Shown piece after piece: positions 48,001-51,000 of a stretch of DNA of 64,000 bases (position 1 is its first letter; each line of letters begins with the position of its first letter). The stretch covers positions 544,001 to 608,000 of the forward strand of contig CM000432.1 in NCBI GenBank assembly GCA_000165345.1, read 5' to 3'. The position numbers were made by a program.

Positions 48001-51000
48001 TTCTGGGCAAAGAACATTGAATGTAAATGGAGACAAGTTTTCCCATTTTGGATTAAACCCATTATTATTTATTACAGGCGTTCTGTATGACTTGAACTCT
48101 TCGCTGGGCCCTCCAAAAACAGAAATAGTAATGTATGGTGAAAGTTTATTCCCAGATATTAGGCCTGCAATTCCACGTGAGAACTGCGATAGATTGTCAG
48201 GGAGCTGGTGAGCTGATAGTATTTGGATACACACTCTAACAGGAGGGATATCAAAGAGCTCTAAAGTTTCTAAAGGGTTCATAGGATCGAATACCCGTCC
48301 ATCAAAGCACTTTTTTAGGCACATTTTTGGTTTTAGTACGTAGCCACTTTTTGAGCCACCATTTTGTCTGAATCTCCCTTCATTCAATAATAAGGCAGTT
48401 CCAACTGCTTGGTAATTCAATGCGACAATCTGAGCTCCGTATGACCATGGTATTAAAGGATTATAGTTTGAACTCGATATACGTGTACCTGATGGATAAA
48501 CTCTACATAGATGATCTTGATGGAACTTTGCAAGACTCATACTTGAGTCTTTCGCAAGGCGCAGAAATTTTGTTTCAACAAGAGAACCAATGCTCATTCT
48601 TCTTCGATTTTCAAAATTAGACAGTTGTATCGCATTTCCTGGAAGGGAAATTAGACTAGAATATAATCTCCTCTTAGTCTGATTTTGATTGTAAGACGAG
48701 GCTTGCTTTTCATTTTCAATCCTTGTATTGTTGGACACTTCGAGATCAACTTCTAATATGTCTGGGTTTAGATCATTTTTTTCATCATCTTCATTAATAA
48801 CCCCTGCTCTTAAATCAAAACTAATATCTTCTTTTGGGACCTTAGCTTTGACAAGAAATTTATATTTAAGTTCATTTGGGGTGGGAAGTCTATCACTCCC
48901 ATCATTTGGGGGAATATAAAGAGAATCGCCTAATACGTTCAATATTATTTCTGCAACCTTTTCACGTTGTTTATCAGATGCATGCATTTCAAGCGATAAA
49001 ATAATCGGATATGGAGATATCTGGAAAGCATAGTCTTTGCATGCTCGAATTACATCTTCAAAGTAAACTTTAGATGTTAAAGTGTGGCCATGGTAAATAA
49101 TTGGTGATCCATCTGGGCCATTCCAAACATCCAACTCTACACATCTACATCCTTGAAGTAATACAGTTATATATTGTCCAATCTCGGATTTTGAAGTTAG
49201 TTGGTCGCCAGTTAAATAAGTATTGTGGCTCGAAGCTATCCAGTAGTGTGAAATAGGTTCATCCATTGATTGATATACATCTCTTTTTAATGGATCAAAT
49301 GCGGAGTTAAATTCTGAAGACATTAGAATATTGAACCCAATTTCAGTAATACCACCCCTTTCAATGAACGGTTCTTTCATATTTAATACAGCATTAACTA
49401 GTGATTCTAATGAGTTTGACGGATCCATTCCTTGAACATCTATCAGAAAATTACGAAATTTATTCGCACCCATAACATTTGTATCTGGATCCTTATATTC
49501 ATCAAATAAATCACGCAACTCAGGGAGTATTAAAAGCTGAGTTAACAAATTTCTAAATTCCTTATAATCAAGTGCACCATTATTATCATTATCATATTCA
49601 CAAAAGAGAGCGTGAGTATAATCTTTAGATACCGGCATCTGCAATCTCTTTGTTAAACGCATTAACTCTGTGAAGCTTATTGAACCAGAGTTATCTAAAT
49701 CTGAAAGTTCCCATTGACGCCTAATGTAGTCGTGAGTGTAAAAATGTTTAGCATCAACAATTTTTTTTGTTCCTTTAATTTTTGAGACTAACTTCTCTCT
49801 TTGAGCAAGAGCATGGCTTACCAACAGCCCGACCATCCAAAATTTCCATTCTTCTTTATTTGCGCATAAAAGTCTTAGTGTTTTATTTCTTTTTCCTATT
49901 ACTACTAGTTCAATCCCAAAATTAGAATTGATATACTCCTTCTTTGTACATTTCTTTGACCTCCAAAAGTCACTATCAGATCCTGGAAGAATGTGGTTTA
50001 CATCATTTAGATATAAAGTCTGAATAAATACCACTTTTCTAGAACAAATCAAAGTTTTTTTTTTTTTATACCACTTTACGCATCCAGAATCTAAGTCAAT
50101 TTCAAAGTTATATCTTGAAAAGCGTCTACTACCAATACAAGAACGCGGATATTTATATAGGTAAGAGCCACTTTTGCATGTATCTAGTGCAATATCTACA
50201 TCAACTTCATGAAGCAATTGCATGAGTCTGTCACTTACAACTATATTCAATTTGTTTACTACATCCTCAAATGTGCGAACGGATATTACATATTCGGATA
50301 GATCTTGACTTCCGAGCAATCTATTAATGCTAATTTCTCCATTACAGTCTAACAACGGCCGAAACATTATATTTATATTGCGAGCAGCTTAACATGCAAT
50401 CGTAATTTGCACGGCAGGTAGCGTTACAGCGGTAGGAATATTTGTGCCGCCAAAAAAGACACTCTTCCGTACAAAATACTTTTCTTTACTTCTTAGTATT
50501 TTAATTATTTATTTATTTTCTTTATATGTAGATATTTTATAATGATGATGATTCGCTTTATCCGTGTTTCAATTGAGTACAATTTTCTGTACAATGAGAC
50601 ATTTTGCGCATTCTGAAGTTATAGTTTTATTGCACAATGCCACAGTATCAACGCAGATTGTTGCTACCGTCCATGTTTGTGCATAAATTAACGAGAATAC
50701 AATAGGAACTCCAAAATGAACTGCTGATTTTTGGAGGCTGATAGTACTCTACATTTTCCATTTTAATCGTCTAATAGATTTTTAACTACTTATCCTTGCG
50801 CGCCTCTGTCTGGTTATTTGTTGACTTTTAGCGTTATTATTCAATGGAGAGAATAACTCTTGTTTCAAATCATAATGGCATATATTCTTTTGATAGAAAT
50901 ACTGGGACTGTATCGCAAACATTCAAGGATTGTAATGCATCCAAGTTTAGTGTTTCCTTTATAGGTAATTCTACAAAATATCTTGCTGGCTTCCAAACAA

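What the first reader, a model, noticed from the sequence alone, without database searches (positions are those of the whole stretch)
50536..50627. Candidate box C/D snoRNA in the divergent PLC / WD40 promoter region
Within a 476-bp intergenic region that is noticeably less AT-rich than others there is an approximately 86-nt element. It has a 5' box C (aTGATGA), a 3' box D (CTGA) and an internal C'-like ATGAGA. A 4-5-bp terminal stem is formed by TATA immediately 5' of box C and TATA 3 nt after box D. The 12-15 nt upstream of box D (cattttgcgcatt) would be the guide.
Basis: seen in the sequence. Interest (0 to 1): 0.5.

Follow-up and report, generated by a model that had tools for sequence, protein, structure and literature searches.

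The report
Cryptosporidium C/D snoRNA beside H/ACA snoRNA
The flagged element is very probably a real small nucleolar RNA of Cryptosporidium parvum that guides methylation of one adenosine in large-subunit ribosomal RNA, and it sits next to a second, pseudouridine-guiding snoRNA; this is an ordinary kind of gene, but neither is in the short published snoRNA list for this parasite.

Summary
The window is Cryptosporidium parvum, probably chromosome 4. Alone they are not beyond chance: TGATGA-N55-85-CTGA occurs 8 times against 5.7 expected. Comparison of the syntenic PLC/WD40 spacer in 11 Cryptosporidium species shows the element is real. Box C (50545-50551), box D (50613-50616), a D' box (UUGA, 50573-50576), a C' box (50594-50600) and a 12-nt antisense element (50561-50572) are nearly invariant, while the flanks drift.

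It lies upstream of D' and pairs 12/12 with LSU rRNA UUGAAACACGGA. Its register matches human SNORD126, which predicts 2'-O-methylation of the A equivalent to human 28S Am1323 (yeast A646), 3 nt 5' of the U18 site. The stretch upstream of box D varies, matches no conserved rRNA, and probably pairs with the spacer after box C.

Six nucleotides downstream (50631-50756) lies an unflagged H/ACA snoRNA with compensatory changes in its stems. Its 3' pocket pairs 7+7 with the yeast Ψ2880 site, the snR34/U65 target. The two probably form a dicistronic unit.

Verdict: new members of known kinds. Expression and the modifications were not tested.

The parts
50537..50624 (+). Box C/D snoRNA, about 88 nt including the terminal stem. 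The mature ends were not determined.
   Evidence: Conserved block in 11 Cryptosporidium species. Weak sub-threshold Rfam matches to several C/D families.
50537..50543 (+). Terminal stem, 5' strand (UUAUAAU). It pairs with 50618-50624.
   Evidence: In-register pairing of 7 bp in C. parvum (2 of them G.U). Different sequences pair in C. ryanae (GGACCAU/AUGGUCC, 7 bp), C. xiaoi (5 bp) and C. felis (5 bp, offset by 2). There is no clear stem in the other 7 species.
50545..50551 (+). Box C, AUGAUGA.
   Evidence: UGAUGA is invariant in 11 species and the first position is a purine in all.
50554..50560 (+). Spacer CGCUUUA, proposed 5' strand of an internal helix with 50602-50608.
   Evidence: Pairs C-G, G-C and C-G are kept in all 11 species. 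C-G becomes U-A in C. andersoni, where the helix is UGCUAU/AUAGCA (6 bp). It is 7 bp in SRR31861040.
50561..50572 (+). D' antisense element, UCCGUGUUUCAA. It is complementary to LSU rRNA 5'-UUGAAACACGGA-3'.
   Evidence: 12/12 Watson-Crick pairs with all 10 complete eukaryotic rDNA units tested. The first 11 positions are invariant in 11 species. The last is A or G, which pairs with U either way.
50573..50576 (+). Box D', UUGA (CAGA in C. andersoni).
   Evidence: GA is invariant. D' position 1 covaries with C' position 6: U-A in 10 species, C-G in C. andersoni. The register is the same as the D' (CUGA) of the Rfam SNORD126 consensus.
50577..50592 (+). Hairpin between D' and C' (GUACA-loop-UGUAC).
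   Evidence: 95.5% of cells are paired, with compensatory changes. C. andersoni has a different 7-bp hairpin, UAUUGAU/AUCAAUA, at this place.
50594..50600 (+). Box C', AUGAGAC (degenerate).
   Evidence: UGA is invariant in 11 species.
50602..50608 (+). 3' strand of the internal helix (UUUUGCG).
   Evidence: 72.5% identity overall and 25% to C. andersoni. No contiguous rRNA match. Pairs with 50554-50560.
50613..50616 (+). Box D, CUGA.
   Evidence: Invariant in 11 species in alignment A4.
50618..50624 (+). Terminal stem, 3' strand (GUUAUAG).
50625..50630 (+). U-rich spacer between the two snoRNAs.
   Evidence: 6 nt in C. parvum and roughly 60 nt in C. andersoni.
50631..50756 (+). H/ACA snoRNA.
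- Hairpin 1: lower stem 50631-50637 with 50677-50683; pocket strands 50638-50644 and 50668-50676; upper stem 50645-50652 with 50660-50667.
- H-box region: 50683-50690.
- Hairpin 2: lower stem 50694-50700 with 50744-50750; pocket strands 50701-50708 and 50737-50743; upper stem 50709-50716 with 50729-50736.
- ACA box at 50751-50753, followed by a 3-nt tail.
   Evidence: RNAalifold on 11 species gives hairpin-hinge-hairpin-tail, and 12 pairs have changes on both sides. ACA is invariant. The 3' pocket pairs 7+7 with LSU AUGUCGGC-UC-UUCCUAUC in 9 of 10 rDNA units. There are 14 nt between the pocket top and ACA. Weak Rfam match to snoR2/U65: 20.3 bits, E 0.25.
50390..50468 (.). Conserved upstream block (ACATGCAA, CACGGCAGGTAG, GCGG...CCGCC, AAGAC). 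Candidate promoter elements for the snoRNA unit, for PLC, or for both.
   Evidence: 74.9% identity across species against 59% for the neighbouring spacer. Covariation does not support a structure, so the conservation is more likely at DNA level.

Best explanation
The element at 50537-50624 (+) is a genuine box C/D snoRNA gene of Cryptosporidium parvum.

Inferred mechanism, from the known workings of C/D snoRNPs:
- Boxes C and D form the terminal kink-turn. Degenerate C' and D' boxes, brought together by a short hairpin, form the internal one.
- Fibrillarin bound at C'/D' methylates the 2'-OH of the rRNA nucleotide paired to the fifth guide nucleotide upstream of D' (U50568).
- The guide UCCGUGUUUCAA pairs with LSU rRNA UUGAAACACGGA. 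The predicted target is therefore the middle A of GAAAC. This equals yeast 25S A646 and human 28S A1323 (old numbering A1310), the site guided in humans by SNORD126.
- This site is 3 nt 5' of the U18/SNORD18 site and next to the conserved m1A.

The region upstream of box D is not an rRNA guide. It most likely pairs with the spacer after box C.

The gene lies 6 nt upstream of an H/ACA snoRNA (50631-50756). That RNA's 3' pocket should direct pseudouridylation of the LSU peptidyl-transferase-centre U equivalent to yeast Ψ2880. The two are probably made from one dicistronic precursor, started at a conserved upstream block and trimmed by nucleases.

Shown here: the motifs, their conservation, the covariation and the complementarity. 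Inferred: expression, co-transcription and the modifications themselves.
For: Organism and context
- The organism is C. parvum, and PLC/WD40 synteny holds in 11 species.

Conservation and structure of the C/D element
- Boxes C, D', C' (UGA) and D and the 12-nt guide are invariant or nearly so, while the flanks are 46-59% identical.
- For the proposed structure, 74.4% of cells are paired against 59.2% or less when partners are slid. Thirteen pairs change on both sides, against 8 or fewer in every slid control, and 0 of 500 shuffles reach the observed values.
- D' position 1 and C' position 6 covary: U-A in 10 species, C-G in C. andersoni. The D'-C' hairpin is replaced by a different hairpin in C. 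andersoni.

Target of the guide
- The guide pairs 12/12 with LSU rRNA in all 10 complete rDNA units tested.
- The Rfam SNORD126 consensus reads ...GUCCGUGUUUCAG-CUGA. This is the same register as UCCGUGUUUCAG-CAGA (C. andersoni) and UCCGUGUUUCAA-UUGA (C. parvum).
- Human Am1323 (old 1310) is assigned to SNORD126 and Am1326 to SNORD18. Yeast has m1A645 and Am649/Cm650 (U18).

Neighbouring H/ACA snoRNA
- Consensus double hairpin with 12 compensated pairs and an invariant ACA.
- The 3' pocket pairs 7+7 with the U that lies exactly 54 nt 3' of the GGC-U-UGUGGC uridine, in all 13 rDNA units that held both motifs. This matches yeast Ψ2826 and Ψ2880, both assigned to snR34.

Annotation
- Locus tags CPATCC_001796 (WD40) and CPATCC_001798 (PLC) leave one unseen tag between them. 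This fits an annotated non-protein gene at this place.
Against: - No expression data could be examined here.
- All Rfam scores are far below the gathering thresholds. For C. parvum: SNORD18 16.7 against 41, snoR38 17.1 against 45, and snoR2/U65 20.3 against 44. For C. andersoni: SNORD126 19.7 against 55.
- D' (UUGA) and C' (AUGAGAC) are degenerate.
- An in-register terminal stem is present in only 4 of 11 species. It is missing in the closest relatives examined (chipmunk genotype, C. ubiquitum).
- Cryptosporidium's own rRNA was not available. Complementarity was tested on other eukaryotes' rDNA, although the segment is universally conserved.
- The box pattern and a 12-mer rRNA antisense match are each at chance frequency when taken alone.
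- The target of the H/ACA 5' pocket could not be assigned.
Confidence: 0.8

Rival explanations
1. It is the Cryptosporidium orthologue of U18/SNORD18/snR18. It would guide methylation of the A equivalent to yeast A649 or human A1326, with the D' box read 3 nt further 5' (CAAU at 50570-50573).
For: - The guide core UCCGUGUUUC is shared with the Rfam SNORD18 consensus, and SNORD18 is among the weak Rfam matches (16.7 bits in C. parvum, 18.2 in C. andersoni).
- U18 is the widely conserved guide for this rRNA segment.
Against: - CAAU, CAGU and CAGC lack the GA dinucleotide of a D box. The invariant GA lies 3 nt further 3'.
- Covariation between D' position 1 and C' position 6 supports UUGA/CAGA as D'.
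- The guide has two extra pairing nucleotides (AA or AG), exactly as in the SNORD126 consensus.
Confidence: 0.1
2. One reading: the functional guide is the 12-15 nt upstream of box D (cattttgcgcatt), which directs methylation of some rRNA or snRNA site.
For: - The position is canonical for a D guide.
- GC at 50606-50607 is invariant, and the third base of GCG (50608) is kept in 10 of 11 species.
- In species with GCGUUUU, the stretch can pair 9 bp (1-2 of them G.U) with AGAACGCAG, which I recognise as a 5.8S rRNA sequence.
Against: - Identity is only 72.5% across species and 25% to C. andersoni.
- Positions 3 and 4 upstream of D change A/U and C/U.
- There is no contiguous match of 9 nt or more to any conserved rRNA segment for the C. 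parvum sequence.
- The invariant bases are explained by an internal helix with the post-C spacer, which covaries in C. andersoni.
- snRNAs and Cryptosporidium-specific rRNA segments were not available for testing.
Confidence: 0.1
3. The C/D and H/ACA domains form one composite RNA, like the vertebrate mixed-domain scaRNAs, rather than two snoRNAs cut from a precursor.
For: - Only 6 nt separate the C/D terminal stem from the H/ACA 5' hairpin in C. parvum. The linkage is kept in all 11 species.
Against: - The spacer is poorly conserved and grows to roughly 60 nt in C. andersoni.
- Both domains have complete end motifs of their own: C/D with a terminal stem, and ACA plus 3 nt.
- Both assigned guides target rRNA, not snRNA.
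- Short U-rich spacers are typical of polycistronic snoRNA clusters (general knowledge).
Confidence: 0.07
4. There is no RNA gene. The conserved blocks are promoter or 5'-UTR elements of the PLC or WD40 genes, and the snoRNA-like motifs are coincidental.
For: - The region is a divergent promoter. An adjacent block (50390-50468) is conserved without structural covariation.
- The box motifs alone are at chance frequency.
Against: - The conservation pattern follows snoRNA anatomy exactly: boxes and guide invariant, stems covarying, loops and flanks free.
- Two independent guides match known modification sites of LSU rRNA in the correct register.
Confidence: 0.03

Closest known systems
SNORD126 (Rfam RF01168), the human guide for 28S Am1323 (old numbering Am1310)
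   Same: It has the same rRNA target segment, and the guide sits in the same place, downstream of box C and upstream of D'. The register is also the same: consensus GUCCGUGUUUCAG-CUGA against UCCGUGUUUCAA-UUGA here and UCCGUGUUUCAG-CAGA in C. andersoni. The same adenosine is therefore predicted to be methylated.
   Different: Similarity is confined to the boxes and the guide. The score is 19.7 bits in C. andersoni against a gathering score of 55, and there was no match at E up to 10 in C. parvum. D' is degenerate here. Common descent and convergence on the same target cannot be told apart.
U18 / SNORD18 / snR18 (Rfam RF00093)
   Same: The guide core UCCGUGUUUC is shared, and it pairs with the same LSU helix. 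Its position after box C is also the same.
   Different: In U18 the D' box follows the guide core directly, which selects yeast A649 or human A1326. Here two more pairing nucleotides and a shifted D' select the A 3 nt upstream. The score of 16.7 bits is below the threshold of 41. This gene is intergenic. Yeast snR18 and human U18 are intron-encoded (from memory).
snR34 / U65 / plant snoR2 H/ACA family (Rfam RF01292, clan CL00042). This is the closest relative of the neighbouring RNA at 50631-50756.
   Same: It has the double-hairpin H/ACA architecture. The 3' pocket pairs 7+7 around the U equivalent to yeast Ψ2880. The 5' strand of the 5' pocket (UGCCAC) matches the family consensus (gCCAC) and the rRNA GUGGCA just 3' of the Ψ2826 site.
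   Different: The score of 20.3 bits is below the threshold of 44. The 3' strand of the 5' pocket (CGUCCAUG, invariant GUCC) does not pair with the Ψ2826 site. The family's GCUA is base-paired in the upper stem here and is not conserved in C. andersoni. The H box is only loosely ANANNA.
Polycistronic snoRNA clusters of plants, yeast and trypanosomatids
   Same: Two snoRNA genes on one strand are separated by a short U-rich spacer. They have no intervening promoter-like conservation, and the linkage is conserved across the genus.
   Different: Co-transcription was not shown here. Li et al. 2022 (PMC9465071) do not describe snoRNA clusters in C. parvum.

Membership tests
Box C/D snoRNA (class) | Box C (RUGAUGA) near the 5' end and box D (CUGA) near the 3' end | tested here: met
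   AUGAUGA at 50545-50551 and CUGA at 50613-50616. UGAUGA and CUGA are invariant in 11 species, and the C-to-D span is 68-85 nt.
Box C/D snoRNA (class) | Short terminal stem bringing C and D together | tested here: inconclusive
   7 bp in C. parvum (A-U and G.U only), 7 bp in C. ryanae, and 5 bp in each of C. xiaoi and C. felis, with different sequences. There is no in-register stem in 7 species. The helix is 58% paired overall.
Box C/D snoRNA (class) | Antisense element of 10 nt or more ending next to box D or D', with the target at the fifth pair | tested here: met
   12/12 Watson-Crick pairs with LSU UUGAAACACGGA, ending directly at D'. The fifth position pairs with an A that is methylated in human 28S.
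Box C/D snoRNA (class) | Internal C' and D' boxes | tested here: met
   D' is UUGA or CAGA with GA invariant. C' is AUGAGAC, AUGAAAC or GUGAAGU with UGA invariant. One pair between them covaries, and a hairpin lies between them. Both boxes are degenerate.
Box C/D snoRNA (class) | Expressed as a stable small RNA bound by fibrillarin, Nop56, Nop58 and Snu13 | not testable with these tools
   No RNA-seq was accessible, and the supplement of PMC9465071 is not held. The only hint is the locus-tag gap CPATCC_001797.
SNORD126 (RF01168) | Score at or above the Rfam gathering threshold (55 bits) | tested here: not met
   19.7 bits in C. andersoni. Not listed at E up to 10 in C. parvum.
SNORD126 (RF01168) | D' guide selecting the A equivalent to human 28S A1323 | tested here: met
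   The guide-to-D' register is the same as in the family consensus.
SNORD18 / U18 (RF00093) | Score at or above the Rfam gathering threshold (41 bits) | tested here: not met
   16.7 bits and 18.2 bits.
SNORD18 / U18 (RF00093) | D' box placed so that the A equivalent to yeast A649 or human A1326 is the fifth pair | tested here: not met
   The conserved GA of D' lies 3 nt further 3'. The tetramer in the U18 register (CAAU, CAGU or CAGC) has no GA.
H/ACA snoRNA (class), for 50631-50756 | Hairpin-hinge(H)-hairpin-ACA, with ACA 3 nt from the end and a pocket 14-16 nt from the box | tested here: met
   Consensus fold with 12 compensated pairs. ACA is invariant. There are 14 nt from the 3' pocket top to ACA. 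The H box fits only loosely: AAAUUA in C. parvum, and not ANANNA in every species.
snR34 / U65 / snoR2 (RF01292) | Score at or above the Rfam gathering threshold (44 bits) | tested here: not met
   20.3 bits, E 0.25.
snR34 / U65 / snoR2 (RF01292) | Pockets for both LSU uridines, the equivalents of yeast Ψ2826 and Ψ2880 | tested here: inconclusive
   The Ψ2880-equivalent is met, with 7+7 bp in 9 of 10 rDNA units and 54-nt spacing to the other site. For the Ψ2826-equivalent, only the 5' strand pairs (6 bp), and the 3' strand does not.

The most novel reading that the evidence does not exclude
The C/D and H/ACA RNAs are not an ordinary independent gene pair. Two readings are not excluded.
1. They form one composite C/D-H/ACA RNA.
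2. They are carried in the 5' leader of the downstream WD40 gene, which is named in C. hominis as the ITS2-processing factor Ynl182c (I identify Ynl182c as yeast IPI3). One transcript would then couple a pre-60S maturation factor to two guides that modify the LSU rRNA core.

In addition, the former D-guide region has been converted into a structural helix that closes the RNA.
Probability: 0.12. Interest if true: 0.45.

Novelty: new member of a known kind. Interest (0 to 1): 0.3.

Why it matters
Cryptosporidium has one of the thinnest snoRNA catalogues of any eukaryote. A 2022 sRNA-seq study recognised 6 C/D and 4 H/ACA snoRNAs (PMC9465071). A 2025 review lists 5 C/D and 4 H/ACA, all on chromosomes 2, 5, 6 and 7, and states that no targets are confirmed (PMC12246861).

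This locus, probably on chromosome 4, adds one of each class with explicit predicted targets in functionally central LSU rRNA. These are the A next to the conserved m1A in the GAAAC segment of domain II (the yeast A645-A647 region), and a peptidyl-transferase-centre uridine.

The locus also suggests that dicistronic snoRNA units exist in this compact genome. It shows that comparative alignment of intergenic spacers across the genus can find snoRNAs that Rfam models miss. The predictions are directly testable by RiboMeth-seq and by pseudouridine mapping. This is incremental annotation value, not a new principle.

Tried and rejected
1. **Rfam.** At gathering thresholds over the window it finds only two tRNAs. 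E-value scans of the spacer in three species give only sub-threshold snoRNA matches, and a whole-window E-value scan adds nothing relevant.
2. **D guide against rDNA.** I tested it on 10 complete eukaryotic rDNA units. The best match for C. parvum is AGUGCUCUGAAUGU, with two internal mismatches. A 9-bp match to AGAACGCAG, which I recognise as a 5.8S sequence, exists only for species with GCGUUUU and is lost in C. parvum. I rejected it as a conserved guide.
3. **H/ACA 5' pocket.**
   - The Ψ2826-like site fits only the 5' strand.
   - Using GCUA as the 3' strand would put the pocket 20-22 nt from the H box. GCUA also covaries as part of the upper stem and is not conserved in C. andersoni.
   - A wobble-rich 18S site (UAUGGG-UG-GUGGUG) recurs in 8 of 10 units, but it leaves the invariant CG unused.
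   - Regular-expression searches for GGAC..U..GUGGCA found nothing conserved.
   - The target is left unresolved.
4. **Upstream conserved block (50390-50468) as a third structured RNA.** The single-sequence fold has z = -2.1, but the alignment shows no covariation support. I treated it as DNA-level conservation.
5. **Literature.** The supplement of PMC9465071, with the coordinates of its 134 ncRNAs, is not held. Searches for CPATCC_001796-8 and the neighbouring cgd4 identifiers found nothing about this locus.
6. **Other 12-mer rRNA antisense matches in the window** (for example at 28226, 26250 and 11121). None has C/D boxes, and 28226 lies inside an ORF. I judged them to be chance.
7. **Cryptosporidium's own rRNA.** It could not be fetched with the tools available.
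Full report
**Source and context.** The window is Cryptosporidium parvum Iowa II. The ORF at 50844-52340 is 100% identical to its 'WD repeat protein'. The chromosome is probably 4, for two reasons. The window carries a polyprenyl synthase that is most likely cgd4_2550. The longest contig carrying these genes is 1.108 Mb, and I recall that as about the length of chromosome 4. The finding lies in the 476-bp spacer between a phosphoinositide phospholipase C gene (minus strand, start codon at 50367) and the WD40 gene (plus strand, start at 50844). One source names the C. hominis orthologue of the WD40 protein 'involved in processing ITS2; Ynl182cp'. I identify Ynl182c as the pre-60S factor IPI3.

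**Observation check.**
- ATGATGA occurs twice, overlapping, at 50542-50548 and 50545-50551.
- CTGA is at 50613-50616 and ATGAGA at 50594-50599.
- TATA at 50538-50541 can pair with TATA at 50620-50623.

The spacer is indeed less AT-rich than most. Its G+C is 33.4% against 27.6% for all non-coding sequence, second highest of 23 non-coding segments.

Taken alone, these features mean little. TGATGA-N55-85-CTGA occurs 8 times in the window against 5.7 +/- 2.2 in shuffles. Rfam finds nothing here at gathering thresholds. Perfect 12-mer antisense matches to an rDNA unit occur at the chance rate across the window, 58 against 57 expected.

**Comparative evidence.** I fetched the syntenic PLC/WD40 spacer from ten further Cryptosporidium species or isolates: chipmunk genotype I, C. 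ubiquitum, C. canis, C. felis, C. ryanae, C. xiaoi, C. andersoni and three Logan assemblies. The alignment shows two sharply bounded conserved blocks on the plus strand. One is the flagged element. The other begins 6 nt after it. A third conserved block lies nearer the PLC gene.

Within the flagged element, identity to C. parvum follows snoRNA anatomy:

| Part | Identity to C. parvum |
|---|---|
| 5' flank | 45.8% |
| Box C | 98.6% |
| Spacer after box C | 93.3% |
| Next 12 nt (D' guide) | 98.3% |
| UUGA (D') | 95% |
| Hairpin | 74.7% |
| C' | 81.4% |
| Stretch before box D | 72.5% (25% to C. andersoni) |
| Box D | 97.5% (100% in the dedicated alignment) |
| 3' flank | 58.6% |

Only the second copy of box C (50545-50551) is conserved in all species.

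**Anatomy of the C/D RNA.**
- **Guide.** The invariant 12-mer UCCGUGUUUCAA (50561-50572) is perfectly complementary to LSU rRNA 5'-UUGAAACACGGA-3' in all 10 complete eukaryotic rDNA units I retrieved.
- **D' box.** The guide is followed directly by UUGA, or CAGA in C. andersoni. The GA is invariant.
- **Hairpin.** Next comes a short hairpin, GUACA/UGUAC. C. andersoni has a different 7-bp hairpin, UAUUGAU/AUCAAUA, at this place.
- **C' box.** AUGAGAC, AUGAAAC or GUGAAGU, with UGA invariant.
- **C'/D' covariation.** The nucleotide that should pair D' position 1 with C' position 6 covaries: U-A in ten species and C-G in C. andersoni.

For the whole proposed structure, 74.4% of cells are paired, against 59.2% or less when partners are slid by 1-3 columns. 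Thirteen pairs change on both sides, against 8 or fewer in every slid control, and 0 of 500 shuffles reach the observed values.

The terminal stem is the weakest part. It is 7 bp in C. parvum (A-U and G.U only) and 7 bp of unrelated sequence in C. ryanae (GGACCAU/AUGGUCC). C. xiaoi and C. felis each have 5 bp. The other seven species have nothing convincing.

**Which nucleotide is targeted.** By the D-box-plus-five rule, guide nucleotide U50568 selects the middle A of GAAAC. Using the yeast modification table (m1A645, Am649, Cm650, Cm663) and the rRNA sequence, this is yeast A646. In human 28S it is A1323 (old numbering A1310), which is methylated under SNORD126. SNORD18 guides A1326, 3 nt downstream.

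The Rfam SNORD126 consensus reads ...GUCCGUGUUUCAG-CUGA. It gave the top, though sub-threshold, match in C. andersoni, which reads UCCGUGUUUCAG-CAGA (19.7 bits against 55). The Cryptosporidium RNA therefore works like SNORD126 rather than like U18, even though SNORD18 was among the sub-threshold Rfam matches for C. parvum (16.7 bits against 41). It meets no Rfam family threshold, so I do not file it in either family.

The stretch upstream of box D (cattttgcgcatt) is poorly conserved and unrelated in C. andersoni. It has no contiguous complement of 9 nt or more in conserved rRNA for the C. parvum sequence. A 9-bp match to AGAACGCAG, which I recognise as a 5.8S rRNA sequence, exists only in species with GCGUUUU. 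I judge it to be chance or a lost function.

The invariant GCG core (50606-50608) pairs in register with CGC of the spacer after box C (50554-50556). C. andersoni has UGCUAU/AUAGCA at the same columns, and one isolate has a 7-bp version. I therefore propose that this region is structural. The support is moderate.

**The neighbour.**
- **Fold.** RNAalifold on 11 species gives hairpin-hinge-hairpin-tail. Twelve pairs carry changes on both sides, ACA is invariant, and a 3-nt tail follows it.
- **3' pocket.** The strands AAUAGGAA and GCUGAUA pair 7+7 with LSU AUGUCGGC-UC-UUCCUAUC in 9 of 10 rDNA units. There are 14 nt between the pocket top and ACA.
- **Site identity.** That U lies exactly 54 nt 3' of the U in GGC-U-UGUGGC, in all 13 rDNA units that held both motifs. 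Yeast snR34 guides Ψ2826 and Ψ2880, which are also 54 nt apart. The site is therefore the Ψ2880 equivalent in the peptidyl-transferase centre.
- **Rfam.** The best match is snoR2/U65, the same family, at 20.3 bits against 44.
- **5' pocket.** This is unresolved. Its 5' strand UGCCAC fits the Ψ2826 site, but its invariant 3' strand CGUCC does not. The alternatives I tried are weak.

**Gene organisation.** The two RNAs are on the same strand. They are 6 nt apart in C. parvum and roughly 60 nt apart in C. andersoni, and they are linked in all 11 species.
- Upstream lies a 79-bp block (50390-50468) conserved at sequence level without structural covariation. An AT-rich stretch follows it.
- Between the H/ACA RNA and the WD40 start codon lie conserved GCGCGCC (50798-50804) and TTGAC (50821-50825) motifs. 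These may be the WD40 promoter.

I infer a dicistronic snoRNA unit, but co-transcription is not shown.

**Novelty.** Li et al. 2022 recognised only 6 C/D and 4 H/ACA snoRNAs in C. parvum, plus 43 intergenic ncRNAs of unknown function. A 2025 review lists 5 C/D and 4 H/ACA, all on chromosomes 2, 5, 6 and 7. The GenBank locus tags of the two flanking genes (CPATCC_001796 and CPATCC_001798) skip one number. The locus may therefore already carry an unclassified ncRNA annotation, but I could not check this. The snoRNA identities, the predicted targets and the tandem arrangement appear unreported. Both RNAs are new members of thoroughly known classes.

**Verdict.** This is a real box C/D snoRNA (confidence about 0.8). 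The guide assignment is corrected, the predicted target is specific and testable, and an H/ACA partner lies alongside. Interest is modest: it is useful for annotation of a neglected pathogen and is not surprising in principle.

Noticed in passing
window 50631-50756 (+): An unflagged H/ACA snoRNA lies 6 nt downstream of the C/D element. Its 3' pocket matches the LSU site equivalent to yeast Ψ2880, the snR34/U65 target. The target of its 5' pocket is unresolved, although the pocket strands (UGCCACA and CGUCC) are invariant in 11 species.
   Followed up: yes
window 50390-50468: A block is conserved across 11 Cryptosporidium species (ACATGCAA, CACGGCAGGTAG, inverted GCGG...CCGCC, AAGAC). It folds stably as a single sequence (z = -2.1), but the alignment shows no covariation. 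It is probably a shared promoter or regulatory element for the snoRNA unit, for PLC, or for both.
   Followed up: partly
window 50798-50804 and 50821-50825: Conserved GCGCGCC (E2F-like, from memory) and TTGAC motifs lie between the H/ACA RNA and the WD40 start codon. They suggest the WD40 gene has its own promoter downstream of the snoRNAs.
   Followed up: no
window 50844-52340 (+): The WD40 protein downstream of the snoRNAs is named 'involved in processing ITS2; Ynl182cp' in C. hominis TU502. I identify Ynl182c as IPI3. A ribosome-biogenesis gene therefore sits next to two rRNA-modification guides.
   Followed up: partly
window 52362-52435 (+) and 20697-20779 (-): Two tRNA genes, at 68.5 and 55 bits. 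The second has a 14-nt insertion in the anticodon arm, which is presumably an intron.
   Followed up: no
window 10348-10832: This non-coding segment has the highest G+C (35.5%) of the 23 non-coding segments in the window. It could hold another non-coding RNA. There was no Rfam match at E up to 5.
   Followed up: no
L007 (C. andersoni), about 2450-2700 on the minus strand: In C. andersoni the C/D RNA is longer (85 nt from C to D against 68-73 elsewhere). It has a different D'-C' hairpin and a different sequence upstream of box D. Roughly 60 nt separate it from the H/ACA RNA. The spacer is 862 bp against about 480-500 bp in the other species.
   Followed up: partly
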